Origin: Candidatus Micrarchaeota archaeon CG_4_10_14_0_2_um_filter_60_11
GTDB taxonomy: Archaea; Micrarchaeota; Micrarchaeia; Norongarragalinales; Norongarragalinaceae
Assembly: GCA_002792915.1 (NCBI GenBank)
Contig: PFPF01000034.1
Coordinates: 1-41,447 of the forward strand
DNA: 41,447 nt
Direction of reading: 5' to 3'
The translations under genes were made by a program, and so were the position numbers. Positions 21,016-40,200 of the stretch are shown in pieces (positions within the stretch are counted from its first letter, which is position 1; each line of letters begins with the position of its first letter). Under the pieces are notes generated by a model, which made no database searches, was not told where the DNA came from, and saw nothing but the letters and a program-made list of their open reading frames with translations.

Positions 21016-21207
21016 ATGAAAGGTAAAGTAAAGATGTTCAACACCGCGCGCGGTTTTGGATTCGTCACGGGCGACGACGGCAAGGACGTCTACGTGCACA
21101 CCTCGGCAATCGAGGGCGGTGCGACTCTCGCGCCGGGCGACGCAGTCGAATACGAAGTCGAAGCGAGCGAACGCGGTTCCCGCGCAAAGAGCCTGAAGAA
21201 GCTTTAG
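21016..21207 (+). CDS. csp: Cold-shock domain protein (CspA family)
   Basis: '[31 protein letters not shown]' (RNP1 'GFGF', RNP2 'VYVH'). 63 aa. Confidence 0.9.
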
Positions 21208-21269
21208 GACGCTGCGTTTTTTGGCCGCAGCCAACATTTTCGGCTAGCTCCGGCTGGAATAAAATAGGA

Positions 21270-21314
21270 TGCAGGGGGAGAGATTCGAACTCTCGAACCC
21301 CTAAGAGAACCGGT
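21270..21314 (-). tRNA. Orphan tRNA 3' half (class II, Leu-like): anticodon-stem 3' strand, long variable arm, T-arm, acceptor 3' strand and A73, with no adjacent 5' half
   Basis: The minus strand reads 'ACCGG TTCTCTTAGGGGTTC GAGAG TTCGAAT CTCTC CCCCTGC A'. The matching 5' acceptor 'GCAGGGG' is absent from the 100 nt upstream. Confidence 0.6.
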
Positions 21315-21353
21315 CATTGCACTGGAACCGAGGTCTACCTTTGTTTTTAAATT

Positions 21354-22076
21354 GTGAAATGCTGGGCACTTTGGCTGGCTATGGTTTATGTCCCGAAAAT
21401 TACGGAGTTCGACTTGAATGTGGATACTGCGTATTTGACTGGCGTGATAATCGGCGACGGCCACATAAGCGGCGATTATCGTTCTTTTCCGCCGCGTGAC
21501 GAAATTGATCCGAAGATTGCGATAGAAGGCGGCAATCGGGTGTTTATTTGCGATGAAGTTAAGCCACTCGTAGACAAAACAATTTTGCGGAGTTGCAATG
21601 TTACCGAGCGGGGCAGCAGGGGAATTAACCGGAACCCTACTTGGGTTCTTGCGTTCAGGAGCAAGTATTTTCACAAGTTTTTGACCGAAGACTTGGGTCT
21701 GCCTAAAGGCAAGAAAGCCGAAAAAATCTCGTTGCGCGTCATGCTGGAAAAAATAGGCGATCGTGCTGAAGTCAAGCGTGCTTTAATTGCAGGCATTTTT
21801 GACACGGACGGCGGTTTGCGGGGGAACAGCATAGGGCATTGCACGGCGAGTAAATCCTTGCGGGATGAAATGATTGACTTGCTCGCAGAAAACGATATTG
21901 CCGCAACAAGAAGCGAATGGGTGAACAAGCGGTATAACAAGAAATACTACGACTGGCGAATAAAGCGCCATGAATCAATCCGCTCTTTCTTGGAAAAAAT
22001 TCCGCTTAGGAATAAAATCAGAAAAGAGCGGATTCGCCAGCGTTTTTGCGCCGCGCCTGCGGCTAAGGTTGTGTAA
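21354..22076 (+). CDS. Free-standing LAGLIDADG (double-motif) homing endonuclease
   Basis: Motif 1 'YLTGVIIGDGHI' and motif 2 'LIAGIFDTDGGL'. The likely real start is the ATG at 21381 ('MVYVPKITEF'), with a 'TTTTTAAAT' box at 21344-21352. Local GC (about 40-52% per 60-nt row) is clearly below the flanks. Confidence 0.85.
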   Translation: MKCWALWLAMVYVPKITEFDLNVDTAYLTGVIIGDGHISGDYRSFPPRDEIDPKIAIEGGNRVFICDEVKPLVDKTILRSCNVTERGSRGINRNPTWVLAFRSKYFHKFLTEDLGLPKGKKAEKISLRVMLEKIGDRAEVKRALIAGIFDTDGGLRGNSIGHCTASKSLRDEMIDLLAENDIAATRSEWVNKRYNKKYYDWRIKRHESIRSFLEKIPLRNKIRKERIRQRFCAAPAAKVV

Positions 22077-22077
22077 A

Positions 22078-22210
22078 TGCAGGGGAAGGGAGTTTCAGCG
22101 TTTTTTAGCGCGGGTTTTTGCCCGCAGCAAAAAAGCGCATTTGAACCCTTGTACCCCTAAGGGACAGCCCCCTAAAGGCCGCGCATTTGACCAGGCTCTG
22201 CCACCCCTGC
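22078..22210 (-). tRNA. tRNA-Leu(UAG) with an approximately 48-nt intron in the T-loop
   Basis: The minus strand reads 'GCAGGGG TG GCAGAGCCTGGTCAAATGC G CGGCC TTTAGGG GGCTG TCCCTTAGGGGTAC AAGGG TTCAAAT [48 nt, about 22091-22138] CCCTT CCCCTGC A'. All stems pair. The intron folds as a long hairpin (GCG.TTTTTT/AAAAAACGC and GCGGG/CCCGC). Confidence 0.8.
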
Positions 22211-22235: not shown

Positions 22236-22244
22236 GTTAAAAAC
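22236..22244 (-). promoter_or_regulatory. TATA-like box upstream of tRNA-Leu
   Basis: The minus strand reads 'GTTTTTAAC' 26-34 nt upstream of the tRNA 5' end at 22210. Confidence 0.45.
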
Positions 22245-22256
22245 GCGCGGCTGGGT

Positions 22257-22985
22257 TCAGCCGTACATCGGGTTGGTTTCCATGCGCTTGTAGTCCTGGT
22301 GGAGCGCCTGTATTTTTTCCATGGCGTCCTTCATCTTGGACTCGATTTGGTTGCCTTCCTTGCGGAGTTCAACCGTGTCGATGGGCACGCCGATTATTTC
22401 AGACAGCTTTTCAAGCAGCGAAGCCGCGGCCTTCGGGTCCATCGGCAGCTGGGTTTCCGCGAGAATGTTCGCGGCAGGGTAAGACTCGCTCGCGCACTCG
22501 GCGATGAGCAAGCCGCTCACGCCCTGCGTGGCGCCCTCCTTTATGAGCTCGATGCCGTTCTTCTTGAGCAACTCGGACATTTTAGGCGTGCTCGCGATTC
22601 CGTGTATTGCCGCAGTGGGCGGCTGTTGCGTGGCTATGCCCGCCAGCGAGTAAATCGCCCGCGCTTTCTTCGCCTTGGCGTAGTCTAGAATCGTCTGCGT
22701 CAATTCGTAGACCACTTCCGCGGGTATCACGAACTCGGAGAAAAGCACTATCAAGTCGTGCTTTTCGGAAGCGTAAATGCGCGCGGGCGAGACCGGCTTG
22801 TAGTCGTGAATCGCCGAGATTGGCGGGAAATGGCTTGACGCCACGTAGCCAACGAGCTTCATGTCCATCTTGCCGGACAGGTAGGCCGCGGAAAGCGTCC
22901 CTATCATGCCGATGCCCGGGAACCCCTCGATTATCACCGGGTTCTTGGTCTTGAATTTGCAGCACTCCTTGATTTCGACTTTCAT
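22257..22985 (-). CDS. PAC2-family proteasome assembly chaperone (PbaA/PbaB-like)
   Basis: 'NPVIIEGFPGIGMIGTLSAAYL...SSHFPPISAI...ARIYAS'. C-terminal helical region ending in the HbYX-type tripeptide 'MYG'. Confidence 0.7.
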   Translation of the reverse strand: MKVEIKECCKFKTKNPVIIEGFPGIGMIGTLSAAYLSGKMDMKLVGYVASSHFPPISAIHDYKPVSPARIYASEKHDLIVLFSEFVIPAEVVYELTQTILDYAKAKKARAIYSLAGIATQQPPTAAIHGIASTPKMSELLKKNGIELIKEGATQGVSGLLIAECASESYPAANILAETQLPMDPKAAASLLEKLSEIIGVPIDTVELRKEGNQIESKMKDAMEKIQALHQDYKRMETNPMYG

Positions 22986-40125: not shown

Positions 40126-40200
40126 GGGCCCGTAGCTCAGCTTGGATAGAGCGATTGCCTCCTAAGCAATAGGTCATGGGTTCGAATCCCATCGGGCTCG
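40126..40200 (+). tRNA. tRNA-Arg(CCU), intron-less
   Basis: 'GGGCCCG TA GCTC AGCTTGGATA GAGC G ATTGC CTCCTAA GCAAT AGGTC ATGGG TTCGAAT CCCAT CGGGCTC G'. All stems pair, with one G-U in the acceptor. Confidence 0.92.

What the first reader, a model, noticed from the sequence alone, without database searches (positions are those of the whole stretch)
21208..22076. Free-standing LAGLIDADG homing endonuclease in a lower-GC islet wedged between two tRNA-Leu-type elements
A double-motif LAGLIDADG ORF ('YLTGVIIGDGHI', 'LIAGIFDTDGGL') lies on the + strand. Its stop is 1 nt from the 3' end of an intron-containing tRNA-Leu on the - strand. Its start region abuts an orphan tRNA 3' half, also on the - strand.

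Per-row GC across the ORF is about 40-52%, against more than 60% in the flanking genes, which suggests recent acquisition.

Archaeal LAGLIDADG enzymes normally sit inside rRNA introns or inteins in the sense orientation. An antisense, free-standing copy bracketed by tRNA pieces sharing the acceptor sequence 'CCCCTGCA' is unusual. It may record a mobile-element insertion into, or duplication of, a tRNA-Leu locus.
Basis: partly seen in the sequence, partly recalled or inferred. Interest (0 to 1): 0.7.

Follow-up and report, generated by a model that had tools for sequence, protein, structure and literature searches.

The report
Homing endonuclease lodged beside tRNA-Leu genes
An intact DNA-cutting "selfish" gene sits by itself between a working, intron-containing tRNA-Leu gene and the broken remnant of a second one, and its relatives across many tiny (DPANN) archaea sit against the same tRNA gene, which suggests a previously undescribed class of tRNA-gene-targeting mobile elements that may help explain how archaeal tRNA genes get broken into pieces.

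Summary
ATG 21381 to TAA 22076 (+) encodes an intact 231-aa two-domain LAGLIDADG endonuclease (Pfam LAGLIDADG_3; AF2 pLDDT 92; I-DmoI-like fold; both catalytic Asp kept).

- **tRNA:** the stop lies 1 nt from the 3' end of tRNA-Leu(UAG) (22210-22078, -). This gene carries a 48-nt intron at 59/60 with a perfect hBHBh' motif.
- **Orphan:** 66 nt upstream of the ATG lies an orphan tRNA-Leu 3' half (21315-21270, -).
- **Composition:** the islet has the lowest GC in the 41 kb (HE GC3 0.54 against 0.71-0.82).

The gene is free-standing: no BHB or group I intron encloses it.

The "recent acquisition" reading is not supported. Relatives with 52-59% identical endonucleases occupy the same PAC2/CSD neighbourhood, and divergence tracks PAC2. 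Equally related lineages have endonuclease-free tRNA-Leu(UAG)-PAC2 sites.

All 38 relatives analysed (31-59% identity; Micrarchaeota, Woesearchaeota, Nanoarchaeota) abut a tRNA-Leu(UAG) gene end, and some also carry orphan tRNA fragments. More distant subfamilies abut tRNA-Met, tRNA-Thr, tRNA-Val and tRNA-Leu(CAA).

Best reading: a long-resident, selectively maintained homing-endonuclease cassette whose target is tRNA-Leu gene DNA. The orphan is debris of a disrupted neighbouring tRNA-Leu gene. Cleavage itself is untested.

The parts
21381..22076 (+). Free-standing LAGLIDADG homing endonuclease gene. It encodes 231 aa, and the frame is open from GTG 21354.
   Evidence: ORF list. The same 231-aa product is called on six public contigs. 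Pfam LAGLIDADG_3 scores 48.1 bits against a cut-off of 22.5. D26 and D143 are invariant in the family alignment. AF2 gives pLDDT 92.1 and pTM 0.89 with two alpha-beta-beta-alpha-beta-beta-alpha halves. Foldseek finds I-DmoI at TM 0.73-0.79, plus PI-PfuI and I-Tsp061I. A profile search of the PDB finds I-DmoI at E 2e-9.
21343..21351 (+). TATA-like box (TTTTTAAAT) about 30 nt upstream of the ATG. It is the presumed promoter of the endonuclease and would give a near-leaderless mRNA.
   Evidence: Read directly from the sequence. TATA-like boxes sit at a comparable distance in relatives. Promoter function is inferred, not tested.
21329..21335 (+). Conserved upstream motif CACTGGA, 25 nt before the TATA box. 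Its role is unknown; it could be a regulatory site or a cassette-end element.
   Evidence: The motif is on the endonuclease-sense strand 24-30 nt before the TATA box in 10 of 41 family loci, and never on the other strand. The background rate is 0.006 per 150 nt.
21270..21315 (-). Orphan tRNA-Leu 3' half (about positions 38-73): variable arm, T-arm GAGAG/TTCGAAT/CTCTC, acceptor 3' strand CCCCTGC and discriminator A73. It has no 5' half.
   Evidence: It is unique in the window, and no second GCAGGGG + D-arm 5' half exists in the 41 kb. ARAGORN does not call it. It matches the 3' halves of tRNA-Leu(CAA) in L104 and tRNA-Leu(TAG) in L110 with 1-2 mismatches over about 40 nt. The spacer to the CSD stop is about 75% identical to the CSD-tRNA-Leu(CAA) spacer of L142. 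No BHB joins it to the upstream tRNA.
22140..22210 (-). tRNA-Leu(UAG) exon 1, positions 1-59.
   Evidence: The anticodon loop is TTTAGGG.
22092..22139 (-). 48-nt bulge-helix-bulge intron at non-canonical position 59/60 in the T-loop. On the + strand its hairpin and T-runs lie 16-63 nt after the endonuclease stop and could act as that gene's terminator.
   Evidence: The strict hBHBh' scan finds it (h 5 bp, H 4 bp, h' at least 3 bp). RNAfold predicts the intron hairpin. Splicing it out gives a canonical 85-nt tRNA. It is homologous to the T-loop intron of the tRNA-Leu(GAG) gene in L176. The terminator role is inferred from T6 and T5 runs and from similarity to the CSD terminator at 21214-21234.
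22078..22091 (-). tRNA-Leu(UAG) exon 2, positions 60-73. Its A73 lies 1 nt from the endonuclease stop codon.
22237..22243 (-). TATA-like box (TTTTTAA) 27-33 nt upstream of tRNA position +1.
   Evidence: Read directly from the sequence. Function is inferred.
21208..22077 (.). Lower-GC islet of about 870 bp that holds the orphan, the promoter and the endonuclease gene. It lies between the CSD gene (21016-21207, +) and the tRNA-Leu(UAG)/PAC2 genes.
   Evidence: GC is 0.47-0.49 inside the islet against about 0.61 outside. It contains the lowest-GC 696-nt window of the whole 41 kb.

Best explanation
**What it is**
- The ORF encodes an intact, monomeric, two-domain LAGLIDADG homing endonuclease of the I-DmoI type.
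- It is expressed from its own promoter and lies in neither an intron nor an intein.
- It belongs to a lineage spread across DPANN archaea whose genes sit against one end of the tRNA-Leu(UAG) gene.
  - In Woesearchaeota and Nanoarchaeota the ORF runs, on the same strand, into the tRNA 5' end.
  - In this Micrarchaeota-like clade it converges on the tRNA 3' end, or in one case lies just upstream of the tRNA.

**How it most likely works**
- It is a selfish homing cassette whose recognition site lies in tRNA-Leu gene DNA, at or near the acceptor-stem end.
- Read along the endonuclease strand, that sequence is the same GCRGGGG whether the neighbour is the tRNA 5' end in sense or the 3' end in antisense.
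- A double-strand break in an endonuclease-free tRNA-Leu locus would be repaired from an endonuclease-bearing copy.
- An intact tRNA-Leu gene is always kept beside the endonuclease, so the host loses nothing.
- Displaced or truncated pieces of tRNA-Leu genes remain as orphans on the far side of the cassette.

**This window**
- The working tRNA-Leu(UAG) next to PAC2 is the retained gene.
- The orphan next to CSD is what is left of a second tRNA-Leu gene, probably the CAA isoacceptor, truncated at about its canonical intron site where the cassette begins.
- The element is an old resident kept under purifying selection, not a recent arrival.

**Shown**
- Enzyme identity and fold.
- The intron.
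- The orphan and its orthology.
- Family-wide linkage to the tRNA.
- Presence/absence polymorphism.
- Purifying selection.

**Inferred**
- Endonuclease activity.
- That tRNA-Leu DNA is the target.
- That the rearrangement was caused by the endonuclease.
For: **Enzyme**
- (see parts).

**Free-standing**
- No BHB encloses the ORF in the window or joins the 5' orphans to the full tRNA in L014, L022 and L035.
- No group I intron or rRNA was found in 20 family loci.

**Linkage to tRNA-Leu(UAG)**
- All 38 endonuclease-adjacent tRNAs analysed have anticodon TAG.
- BHB-guided splicing gives ARAGORN-accepted 84-nt tRNA-Leu(tag) genes for 15 of them.
- The C-terminal tails of family proteins are translations of tRNA acceptor and D-arm DNA in all three frames (18, 24 and 14 proteins). 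This shows conservation at the DNA level rather than the protein level.
- The conserved C-terminal ...RF motif ends only 4-31 nt from the tRNA end.

**Orphans and debris**
- Window: z = 13.7 against shuffles.
- L014, L022 and L035: 16-23 nt copies of the tRNA 5' end, 91-100% identical to the adjacent tRNA.
- L026; L007 and L009.
- L009 has a 5' fragment and a 3' fragment of one tRNA-Leu flanking a block made of an intact tRNA-Leu plus the endonuclease.
- A second LAGLIDADG family shows the same architecture at tRNA-Leu(CAA) in L135/L086 and L074.

**Empty sites**
- L109 (PAC2 65% identical), L077 (59%) and L145 have tRNA-Leu(UAG) next to PAC2 with no endonuclease within 0.7-2.5 kb.
- L145 and L010 are 88% identical across promoter and tRNA, and the similarity stops exactly at the tRNA 3' end, where the endonuclease block begins.

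**Orphan orthology**
-.

**Selection and age**
- dN/dS is 0.1-0.2 in unsaturated pairs.
- Flanks diverge like the endonuclease.
- Endonuclease identity tracks PAC2 identity.

**Precedent**
- A tRNA fragment and an intact intron-containing tRNA flank a mobile element in Caldiarchaeum (PMC3293823).
Against: **Untested steps**
- No cleavage data exist, and the target site is not defined.

**Signs against active homing**
- Endonuclease and host divergence are similar, and flank synteny is mostly conserved. Transmission therefore looks largely vertical, which is not what frequent horizontal homing predicts.
- All public copies of this organism's locus are 99.98-100% identical, and no endonuclease-free allele was seen at population level.

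**Weak points of the orphan argument**
- Significant orphans occur in only about 9 of about 43 loci.
- The window's two flanking tRNA segments are only 81-87% identical over 15-26 nt, so they are not a clean target duplication.
- The working tRNA-Leu(UAG) sits in the ancestral PAC2-adjacent position while the orphan belongs to a different locus (CSD/tRNA-Leu-CAA). The arrangement could therefore come from a plain deletion that fused two tRNA-Leu loci, with no help from the endonuclease.

**Specificity puzzle**
- The acceptor and T-arm sequences proposed as target are shared by all five Leu isoacceptors in this clade.
- Yet this family is found only at the UAG isoacceptor.

**Introns as protection**
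- Among Micrarchaeota-type tRNA-Leu(UAG) genes, introns are no more frequent beside an endonuclease (3 of 5) than without one (8 of 19).
Confidence: 0.58

Rival explanations
1. Domesticated endonuclease. The protein is kept because it serves the host at the tRNA-Leu(UAG) locus. It might act as a DNA-binding regulator of the tRNA gene, as a guardian that destroys foreign or recombinant tRNA-Leu copies, or as a maturase-like helper for the intron-rich pre-tRNA. On this view its position next to the tRNA reflects function, not homing.
For: - Purifying selection is strong (dN/dS 0.1-0.2).
- Inheritance is largely vertical, with co-divergence.
- The association with one tRNA species holds across several DPANN phyla.
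- A promoter-proximal motif, CACTGGA, is conserved across phyla.
- In the co-oriented arrangement the endonuclease and tRNA must share transcription.
Against: - Both catalytic Asp are invariant, as expected of an active nuclease.
- Distribution is patchy among equally related lineages: the endonuclease is absent where PAC2 is 59-65% identical and present where it is 54-61% identical.
- The position relative to the tRNA is not fixed within the clade; it is upstream-divergent in L008 and downstream-convergent in the others.
- GC3 is far below host genes.
- Orphan tRNA fragments point to repeated DNA breakage and repair.
- Sister subfamilies sit at other tRNAs (Met, Thr, Val, Leu-CAA), which fits target-switching selfish elements.
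Confidence: 0.2
2. Coincidental debris. The endonuclease does home or persist, but its target is not the tRNA gene; it could be the intergenic site it occupies. On this view the orphan was made by an ordinary deletion or recombination between paralogous tRNA-Leu genes that fused the CSD/tRNA-Leu(CAA) locus to the tRNA-Leu(UAG)/PAC2 locus.
For: - The orphan is orthologous to a tRNA-Leu(CAA) at a different ancestral locus.
- tRNA-Leu paralogues share long identical ends and even introns, so they are recombination-prone.
- tRNA-Leu(UAG) in L010 and tRNA-Leu(CAA) in L142 occupy the same position next to a PEP-utilising-enzyme gene. This shows that tRNA-Leu genes swap places without needing an endonuclease.
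Against: - A 3'-terminal tRNA-Leu fragment lies just upstream of the endonuclease promoter in three separate lineages (window, L007, L009), with different fragment lengths and acceptor types. 5' fragments lie in the equivalent place in the co-oriented clade.
- The same architecture recurs with an unrelated LAGLIDADG family.
- The gene-to-tRNA distance is 4-31 nt throughout the family, which is hard to explain without the tRNA end defining the insertion site.
Confidence: 0.15
3. Functional split tRNA. The orphan is the 3'-half gene of a split tRNA-Leu. It would be transcribed from the A/T-rich box upstream and trans-spliced to a 5' half encoded elsewhere, as in Nanoarchaeum equitans. Alternatively it would be joined to the upstream tRNA exon by alternative splicing of an intron of about 870 nt that carries the antisense endonuclease gene.
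For: - The break is at about position 37/38, the classical split and intron site.
- A TTTAAAAA box lies about 30 nt upstream on the - strand.
- The acceptor 3' strand CCCCTGC would pair with the GCAGGGG 5' strand used by all Leu tRNAs of this clade.
- A chimera of the upstream 5' part and the orphan folds as a tRNA-Leu.
Against: - No second 5' half exists in the 41 kb.
- No hBHBh' motif links the orphan to the upstream tRNA exon.
- The sequence just 5' of the orphan gives no tRNA-like anticodon loop and no BHB half compatible with any Leu anticodon (manual analysis).
- A high-GC contig, L104 (GC 0.594), which may be from the same organism, carries an intact tRNA-Leu(CAA) with the same T-arm.
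- Equivalent fragments in L135 lack a functional BHB.
Confidence: 0.05

Closest known systems
I-DmoI and other archaeal LAGLIDADG homing endonucleases (I-Tsp061I, PI-PfuI)
   Same: Same enzyme family and fold: a monomer with two LAGLIDADG motifs and an acidic catalytic residue in each. I-DmoI is the best sequence match in the PDB (E 2e-9), and Foldseek TM is 0.73-0.79.
   Different: Those enzymes are encoded, in the sense orientation, inside BHB introns of rRNA genes or inside inteins. This one is free-standing with its own promoter. It is antisense to its neighbouring gene, and it is associated with a tRNA gene rather than an rRNA or protein gene. Sequence identity is only 14-22%.
Free-standing phage homing endonucleases in tRNA gene clusters (T4 SegB; cited from memory, not checked here)
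   Same: An endonuclease gene stands free beside tRNA genes. It is thought to cut the tRNA region of endonuclease-free genomes and spread with flanking markers (intron-less homing).
   Different: SegB is a GIY-YIG enzyme in a phage. Here the enzyme is a LAGLIDADG protein in a cellular archaeal chromosome, it physically overlaps or touches the tRNA gene end, and it is specific to one tRNA species across phyla.
Mitochondrial homing-endonuclease insertions that carry a duplicate of the host gene's end (for example Allomyces atp6 or Ophiostoma rps3; cited from memory)
   Same: The endonuclease lands in an essential gene. An intact copy of the gene is kept next to it, and the displaced gene end survives as a pseudogene fragment on the other side.
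   Different: The hosts there are protein-coding organelle genes. Here the host is a tRNA gene, the fragments are 14-46 nt long, and in some loci (L009, L135) the replacement is a whole tRNA gene with a different acceptor stem.
Caldiarchaeum subterraneum tRNA-Thr(GGU) locus (Sugahara et al. 2012, PMC3293823)
   Same: A tRNA fragment and an intact intron-containing tRNA of the same type flank an inserted mobile element. The authors propose this as a route to tRNA fragmentation and intron gain.
   Different: That 1.8-kb element encodes a DNA recombinase and looks transposon- or plasmid-like. Here the only gene in the 870-bp islet is a LAGLIDADG endonuclease, and no recombinase or integrase is present.
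Integrase-type elements in archaeal tRNA genes (SSV or pNOB8 type; general knowledge)
   Same: The arrangement is an intact tRNA gene, then the element, then an orphan tRNA 3' segment in direct orientation.
   Different: There is no integrase. The repeats are not identical att cores (81-87% over 15-26 nt). The element is under 0.9 kb.
Non-canonical BHB tRNA introns of Micrarchaeota (ARMAN-2 tRNA-Cys 59/60; PMC5829648)
   Same: The window's intron lies at the same 59/60 T-loop position and has a bulge-helix-bulge motif.
   Different: Nothing essential differs; this part of the finding is ordinary for the clade. The only extra is that the intron hairpin lies immediately 3' of the endonuclease stop and resembles the CSD terminator.

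Membership tests
LAGLIDADG homing endonuclease (two-motif, monomeric) | Two LAGLIDADG motifs, each ending in a catalytic Asp or Glu followed by Gly | tested here: met
   The motifs are ...VIIGDGH... (D26) and ...IFDTDGG... (D143). Both Asp are invariant in 27 homologues, and motif 1 aligns to I-DmoI D21.
LAGLIDADG homing endonuclease (two-motif, monomeric) | Significant match to a curated family profile | tested here: met
   Pfam LAGLIDADG_3 scores 48.1 bits against a cut-off of 22.5, E 1.4e-12.
LAGLIDADG homing endonuclease (two-motif, monomeric) | Tandem alpha-beta-beta-alpha-beta-beta-alpha fold with a DNA-binding beta saddle | tested here: met
   AF2 gives pLDDT 92.1 and the expected order of secondary-structure elements. 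Foldseek probability is 1.00 to I-DmoI, PI-PfuI and I-Tsp061I.
LAGLIDADG homing endonuclease (two-motif, monomeric) | Site-specific double-strand cleavage of a 14-22 bp target | not testable with these tools
   This needs a biochemical assay.
Intron- or intein-encoded archaeal homing endonuclease | ORF lies inside, and on the same strand as, a BHB or group I intron, or is fused in frame within an intein | tested here: not met
   The ORF is antisense to the tRNA. No BHB encloses it. No group I intron or rRNA was found. The 231-aa protein has no intein splicing domains.
Free-standing homing endonuclease cassette (intron-less homing) | Presence/absence polymorphism at the same locus among relatives | tested here: met
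   The endonuclease is present in the window, L007, L008 and L009. It is absent in L109, L077, L107 and L145, which have the same PAC2/tRNA-Leu(UAG) neighbourhood.
Free-standing homing endonuclease cassette (intron-less homing) | Own expression signals | tested here: inconclusive
   A TATA-like box lies 30 nt before the ATG, together with the conserved CACTGGA motif. No transcript data are available.
Free-standing homing endonuclease cassette (intron-less homing) | Enzyme cleaves the endonuclease-free allele near the insertion point while the occupied allele is immune | not testable with these tools
   The insertion boundary is mapped to the tRNA 3' end by comparing L145 with L010. Cleavage is untested.
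Free-standing homing endonuclease cassette (intron-less homing) | Evidence of horizontal spread (endonuclease tree conflicts with host tree) | tested here: not met
   Endonuclease divergence tracks PAC2 and flank divergence. Only pairwise comparisons were made, and no full tree was built.
Archaeal BHB tRNA intron (non-canonical position) | hBHBh' motif: two 3-nt bulges separated by a 4-bp helix, with removal giving a canonical tRNA | tested here: met
   The motif is AAGGG|TTCA|AAT|GCG ... CGC|TGAA|ACT|CCCTT. The spliced product is an 85-nt tRNA-Leu(tag).
Archaeal BHB tRNA intron (non-canonical position) | Actual excision by the splicing endonuclease EndA | not testable with these tools
   No RNA data are available. 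Broad-specificity EndA in Micrarchaeota is known from the literature (PMC5829648).
Split tRNA gene (trans-spliced halves) | A partner half exists, and leader and trailer pair to form a BHB at the junction | tested here: not met
   No partner 5' half exists in the window, and no BHB-compatible leader was found. The rest of the genome could not be searched.
Integrase-mediated integrated element in a tRNA gene | Integrase or recombinase gene, and identical att direct repeats derived from the tRNA 3' part | tested here: not met
   The only ORF in the islet is the endonuclease. The repeats are 81-87% identical over 15-26 nt.

The most novel reading that the evidence does not exclude
LAGLIDADG endonucleases of DPANN archaea may form a previously unrecognised class of tRNA-gene-homing elements. 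Each subfamily would be tied to one tRNA species: Leu-UAG, Leu-CAA, Met/Ile-CAU, Thr-GGU or Val.

They would dock at the acceptor-stem end of the gene. That end reads the same at the 5' end in sense and at the 3' end in antisense, which would explain both orientations seen here.

They would travel with, or preserve, an intact tRNA copy while breaking the resident one. By doing so they would be a direct, still-active engine of tRNA gene fragmentation, producing orphan halves and pieces of tRNA separated by kilobases.

On this reading, they are the long-sought mobile-element cause of split and disrupted tRNA genes in archaea.
Probability: 0.3. Interest if true: 0.85.

Novelty: new variant of a known kind. 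Interest (0 to 1): 0.68.

Why it matters
**The open question.** Why archaeal tRNA genes are so often interrupted, split or permuted is unresolved. The leading idea is that mobile elements attacking tRNA genes drive the fragmentation, or that fragmentation protects against them. Direct genomic examples are very few; the Caldiarchaeum tRNA-Thr locus is one.

**What this locus adds.**
- It shows, with its relatives, a concrete and widespread actor: compact LAGLIDADG genes sitting against specific tRNA genes.
- Broken tRNA pieces lie beside them in several independent lineages.
- The question becomes testable with one recombinant protein and a handful of PCR substrates.

**What is unusual.**
- Archaeal LAGLIDADG enzymes are otherwise known from rRNA introns and inteins. 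This extends them to a free-standing lifestyle with a tRNA-gene target.
- It offers a family of compact nucleases with naturally diverse, highly conserved targets.

**Practical point.** Many annotated C-termini of these proteins are read-through into tRNA genes. Some end at the tRNA's own TAG anticodon. The intron-rich tRNAs next to them are missed by standard tRNA finders.

Tried and rejected
1. **Giant intron or alternative splicing joining the tRNA-Leu(UAG) exon to the orphan.** A strict hBHBh' scan of the whole 1.1-kb - strand found only the 48-nt T-loop intron and chance-level hits. Rejected.
2. **Endonuclease inside a D-loop BHB intron in the co-oriented clade.** No BHB joins the 5' orphans to the full tRNAs in L014, L022 and L035. 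Rejected.
3. **Group I intron or rRNA context.** Rfam found none in the window or in 20 loci. Rejected.
4. **Integrase-type integration.** There is no integrase and there are no identical att repeats. Rejected.
5. **Introns as immunity against the endonuclease.**
   - In Micrarchaeota-type genes, introns at the same positions occur in all five Leu isoacceptors without any endonuclease.
   - Introns are not enriched next to it: 3 of 5 against 8 of 19.
   - In Woesearchaeota-type genes, 32 of 33 endonuclease-linked tRNA-Leu(UAG) genes carry introns, but no endonuclease-free baseline could be obtained.
   - Not supported in the first clade; left open in the second.
6. **Recent horizontal acquisition.** Not supported.
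7. **First claim that none of the 120 metagenome tRNA-Leu loci carries an endonuclease.** This held only for close homologues (tblastn). A profile search then found a second, distant LAGLIDADG family at tRNA-Leu(CAA) loci, and the claim was corrected.
8. **The first strict BHB check of alignment-predicted introns failed for 63 of 64**. It demanded an outer helix, which most of these introns lack because they are relaxed HBh'-type. A relaxed scan combined with ARAGORN validated 15 genes. The remainder are unverified.
9. **Comparison with the six public contigs that carry the identical protein.** It gave no comparative information because they are 99.98-100% identical to the window.
10. **CACTGGA motif as a decayed D-loop remnant.** This could not be decided.
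11. **Literature searches**. They found no description of tRNA-linked LAGLIDADG genes in DPANN archaea. The library holds only open-access papers, so absence is not proof.


Full report
**1. What is in the window**

Between a cold-shock-domain gene (CSD, 21016-21207, +) and a PAC2 proteasome-chaperone gene (22257-22985, -) lies an islet of about 870 bp with lower GC. Read along the + strand it contains:

- (a) the reverse complement of a tRNA 3' half (21270-21315);
- (b) the motif CACTGGA (21329-21335) and a TATA-like box TTTTTAAAT (21343-21351);
- (c) an ORF, ATG 21381 to TAA 22076, 231 aa;
- (d) one base later, the 3' end of a tRNA-Leu gene on the - strand (22210-22078).

GC figures:

- The ORF is 47.7% GC with GC3 0.543.
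- Neighbouring genes have GC3 of 0.71-0.82, and the window mean is 60.9% GC.
- This is the lowest-GC 696-nt stretch among 816 windows.

The only corrections are that the ORF starts at 21381, not 21208, and that the orphan lies 66 nt from the start codon.

**2. The tRNA**

- ARAGORN calls a tRNA-Leu(tag) but misplaces its 3' end, and Rfam's tRNA model misses it.
- Read by hand, the - strand gives acceptor GCAGGGG/CCCCTGC, anticodon loop TTTAGGG, a long variable arm and T-stem AAGGG/CCCTT.
- Forty-eight extra nucleotides sit in the T-loop.
- A strict search of the whole 1.1-kb - strand for helix / 3-nt bulge / 4-bp helix / 3-nt bulge / helix recovers this site as its only strong hit: AAGGG|TTCA|AAT|GCG ... 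CGC|TGAA|ACT|CCCTT.
- Cutting after the second base of each bulge places the intron at 59/60 (22139-22092).
- The spliced product is an 85-nt tRNA-Leu(tag) that ARAGORN accepts as canonical.
- RNAfold predicts the acceptor stem, T-stem and intron hairpin.
- An intron at 59/60 is documented for ARMAN-2 (Micrarchaeum) pre-tRNA-Cys (PMC5829648).

**3. The orphan**

- The 46 nt at 21315-21270 (-) form a variable arm, a perfect T-arm (GAGAG TTCGAAT CTCTC), the acceptor 3' strand and A73.
- Nothing tRNA-like lies 5' of it.
- No second 5' half exists in the 41 kb, and no BHB links it to the upstream tRNA.
- The spacer between the CSD stop and the orphan's 3' end is about 75% identical to the spacer of metagenome locus L142. 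There, a CSD gene 84% identical to the window's is followed at the same distance by an intact tRNA-Leu(CAA) with two introns.
- Homology to tRNA-Leu(CAA) genes (L142, L104) stops at about position 38, the canonical intron site.
- The orphan is therefore the remnant of a once-complete tRNA-Leu gene, truncated where the endonuclease block begins.

**4. The protein**

- Pfam LAGLIDADG_3 scores above its cut-off.
- D26 and D143 are invariant in 27 homologues.
- AF2 gives pLDDT 92.1 and pTM 0.89 with two alpha-beta-beta-alpha-beta-beta-alpha halves.
- The best structural matches are the endonuclease domains of the TliVMA intein and PI-PfuI, followed by I-DmoI (TM 0.73-0.79 normalised to the target) and I-Tsp061I.
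- The best PDB sequence match is I-DmoI, E 2e-9.
- It is an intact two-domain LAGLIDADG endonuclease.

**5. Same organism, close relatives and empty sites**

Six public contigs carrying the identical protein are 99.98-100% identical to the window over 11-21 kb, so they are the same organism. They include GCA_002763255.1 and GCA_002505035.1.

The nearest different homologues are 52-59% identical, and one is annotated as a Micrarchaeota archaeon. They lie in the same neighbourhood but are arranged differently:

| Locus | Arrangement |
|---|---|
| L008 | intron-less tRNA-Leu(UAG) (-), endonuclease (+), PAC2 (-) |
| L010 | endonuclease (+), then an intron-less tRNA-Leu(UAG) (-) that overlaps the stop codon |
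| L007 | CSD, PALP, an 18-nt orphan 3' fragment, endonuclease, then tRNA-Leu(UAG) with a D-loop intron overlapping the stop |
| L009 | 3' orphan, endonuclease, tRNA-Leu(UAG) with a 155-nt T-loop intron and a different acceptor stem, 5' orphan (1-15), a small ORF, PAC2 |

- In L007 and L010 the endonuclease stop codon is the antisense of the T-loop (ATT TGA A).
- Endonuclease identity tracks PAC2 identity: 54.5% against 60.7% for L008, and 52.2% against 54.1% for L009.
- In all four relatives the endonuclease is AT-richer than its flanks.
- The association is therefore old, and low GC is a standing trait of the gene.

A metagenome scan with the clade's tRNA-Leu 5' sequence returned 120 loci covering all five Leu isoacceptors.

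- None holds a close homologue of the endonuclease.
- L109/L107, L077, L145 and L149 have tRNA-Leu(UAG) next to PAC2 (PAC2 49-65% identical) with no endonuclease of this family. L109, L077 and L145 have 0.7-2.5 kb of flank on the relevant sides. These are empty sites, in lineages as close to the window as the endonuclease-bearing ones.
- L145 (no endonuclease) and L010 (endonuclease) are 88% identical through the tRNA promoter and gene. They diverge right after ...CCCCTGCAC, where the endonuclease block begins in L010.

**6. The wider family**

A scan of one genome per species found 52 loci, in Micrarchaeota, Woesearchaeota, Nanoarchaeota and Iainarchaeota. Several contigs are labelled otherwise.

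- In most loci the ORF runs, on the same strand, into the 5' end of a tRNA.
- Acceptor-stem pairing defined genes of 84-272 nt.
- Spliced alignment showed that all 38 endonuclease-adjacent tRNAs analysed are tRNA-Leu with anticodon TAG, and 32 of 33 in the co-oriented group carry 1-4 introns.
- BHB-guided splicing plus ARAGORN validated 15 of them and placed a conserved non-canonical intron at about 30/31.
- The variable C-terminal tails of the proteins (...DVPEWSNG...GDAGVAKRD...RGCRSGQTG) are the three reading frames of the tRNA acceptor and D-arm DNA, seen in 24, 18 and 14 proteins.
- Fourteen proteins end in ...QA*, encoded by CAA GCT TAG, where TAG is the Leu anticodon itself.
- The conserved ...RF end of the enzyme lies only 4-31 nt from the tRNA end.
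- A profile search of 1.84 billion representative proteins gives 61 clusters at E <= 1e-30 and 840 at E <= 1e-10.
- More distant subfamilies sit against other tRNAs: tRNA-Met/Ile(CAU), convergent and intron-rich (L055, L056, L058); tRNA-Thr(GGU) (L057, L059, L061); and tRNA-Val (L062).
- dN/dS is 0.1-0.2 in unsaturated pairs, and the flanks of such pairs diverge to a similar degree.

**7. Orphans elsewhere**

- Copies of the tRNA 5' end 16-23 nt long (91-100% identical) lie upstream of the endonuclease promoter in L014, L022 and L035. A significant partial copy occurs in L026, and by eye in L021 and L028.
- A profile search of the 120 metagenome loci uncovered a second, distant LAGLIDADG family (LLGLHVGDGW...LFSTDGCFSF) at tRNA-Leu(CAA) genes.
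  - In L097, L168 and L178 the ORF ends 9-17 nt before the tRNA.
  - In L135/L086 and L074 a 5' fragment of one tRNA-Leu, broken at about 31/32, is followed by the antisense endonuclease and then a complete tRNA-Leu(CAA) with a different acceptor stem.
  - In L135 the matching 3' part lies about 1.95 kb further on, with no functional BHB across the insert.
- The pattern [quoted passage not shown] therefore recurs in independent lineages and with two enzyme families.

**8. Interpretation**

- The enzyme is free-standing. No BHB or group I intron encloses it.
- Several observations point to tRNA-Leu gene DNA as its homing target:
  - linkage to one tRNA species;
  - a junction only nucleotides from the tRNA end;
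  - presence/absence polymorphism;
  - recurrent tRNA debris;
  - sister subfamilies at other tRNAs.
- This is an inference; cleavage has not been tested.
- Read along the endonuclease strand, the neighbour always starts with the acceptor sequence GCRGGGG. This holds whether the neighbour is the tRNA 5' end in sense or the 3' end in antisense. That could explain how one lineage occupies either end of the gene.
- Against frequent horizontal homing:
  - divergence looks largely vertical;
  - most loci lack detectable orphans;
  - no population-level empty allele was seen for this organism.
- In the window, the working tRNA sits in the ancestral PAC2-adjacent position while the orphan belongs to the CSD/tRNA-Leu(CAA) locus. 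A simple deletion fusing two tRNA-Leu loci therefore cannot be excluded.
- The rivals considered are a domesticated host function, coincidental debris and a functional split tRNA half.

**9. The intron is ordinary for the clade**

- T-loop (59/60), D-loop and 37/38 introns occur in all five Leu isoacceptors of endonuclease-free relatives.
- The window's intron is homologous to the T-loop intron of the tRNA-Leu(GAG) gene in L176.
- Another T-loop intron family is shared by tRNA-Leu(CAA), (CAG) and (UAG) genes in L142, L160 and L161.
- In Micrarchaeota-type genes, introns are not enriched beside the endonuclease.

**10. Comparison with known systems and novelty**

- The enzyme is a member of the LAGLIDADG family, and the intron is a known type.
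- What is new is the lifestyle: free-standing, placed against a specific tRNA gene, across DPANN phyla, with tRNA fragments nearby.
- The nearest parallels are:
  - archaeal rRNA-intron endonucleases (same enzyme, different home);
  - phage T4 SegB and mitochondrial endonuclease insertions with duplicated gene ends (same logic, different enzyme or host; both cited from memory);
  - the Caldiarchaeum tRNA-Thr fragment flanking a recombinase element (PMC3293823).
- Six full-text searches found no description of tRNA-linked LAGLIDADG genes in DPANN archaea. The library is limited to open-access papers.
- I rate it a new variant of a known kind, interest 0.68.

Noticed in passing
L011-L054 (for example L025 3623-3894, L030 3641-3746); proteins P0006, P0016, P0030, P0066 and others: Many family ORFs have no stop codon of their own. 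They read through the tRNA acceptor and D-arm and the first intron, and stop at TAG, the tRNA-Leu anticodon itself (C-terminus ...QA* = CAA GCT TAG). Fourteen of 145 proteins examined end this way. The tails occur in all three frames, so annotated C-termini are read-through, not protein features.
   Followed up: partly
window 21329-21335 (+), and 24-30 nt upstream of the TATA box in L013, L017, L022, L024, L025, L027, L032, L034 and L041: CACTGGA(C) is a strand-specific motif at fixed spacing upstream of the endonuclease promoter, conserved across phyla. It occurs in 10 of 41 loci, about 40 times the background rate. Its function is unknown; it might be an operator or autoregulatory site, or a decayed D-loop remnant.
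   Followed up: partly
L135 5962-8000 (= L086), L074 388-1311, L097 4548-5346, L168 369-1198, L178 2068-2613: A second, distant LAGLIDADG family (LLGLHVGDGW...LFSTDGCFSF) sits against tRNA-Leu(CAA) genes. In L135 and L074 it lies between a 5' fragment of one tRNA-Leu and a complete tRNA-Leu(CAA) that has a different acceptor stem (GCGGCGG) and an encoded CCA. In L135 the matching 3' part lies about 1.95 kb away.
   Followed up: partly
L055 3584-3676, L056 1365-1476, L058 1711-1836; L057 3594-3667, L059 2123-2196, L061 3255-3328; L062 3543-3734: Endonuclease subfamilies about 27% identical abut other tRNAs. One group converges on intron-rich tRNA-Met/Ile(CAU). Another is co-oriented with tRNA-Thr(GGU), and one with tRNA-Val. 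ARAGORN mis-names the intron-containing ones (Ser, Pro, '???').
   Followed up: partly
L142 1389-1564, L160 101-246, L161; window 22092-22139 compared with L176: The same T-loop (59/60) intron sequence occurs in three different Leu isoacceptor genes (CAA, CAG, UAG) in three organisms. The window's intron is likewise shared with a tRNA-Leu(GAG). Introns therefore appear to move or convert among tRNA-Leu paralogues in this clade.
   Followed up: partly
window 22098-22131 and 21214-21235: The tRNA intron hairpin, (C)GCGTTTTTTAGC...TTTTTGCCCGCAGCAAA on the + strand, resembles the hairpin and T-run just after the CSD stop codon (GCGTTTTTTGGCCGCAGCCAA). These are the only two such sequences in the 41 kb. 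The intron may double as the transcription terminator of the endonuclease gene. Its T6 run on the - strand lies inside the pre-tRNA.
   Followed up: partly
L009 422-1600: Nested arrangement on the - strand: 5' orphan (GCAGGGGTGGCAAAG), about 130 nt, a complete tRNA-Leu(UAG) with acceptor GCAGGAG and a 155-nt T-loop intron, the antisense endonuclease, then a 3' orphan that still carries the 3' half of a BHB (TGAA AGC CCCTC CCCCTGCA). L007 has the reciprocal pairing of acceptor types.
   Followed up: partly
L149 1514-2737 (window-like orientation): A 407-aa ORF of unknown nature occupies the space between PAC2 and tRNA-Leu(UAG), where other relatives have the endonuclease or a short spacer. It was not characterised.
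   Followed up: no
L001-L006 compared with window 11381-32076: Contigs from ENA, JGI and NCBI assemblies of different samples are 99.98-100% identical to the window over 11-21 kb. The organism is either remarkably clonal and widespread, or the samples come from related sites.
   Followed up: no
L014, L022, L028, L030 and others; L056; L059 (record titles): Many loci carrying these archaeal-type intron-rich tRNAs and endonucleases are titled 'uncultured Methanosarcinales', 'Falkowbacteria' or 'Gammaproteobacteria'. These are probably mis-binned or mis-labelled DPANN contigs.
   Followed up: no
window 40126-40200 (+): An ordinary intron-less tRNA-Arg(CCT). It is the only tRNA in the window that Rfam detects.
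   Followed up: no
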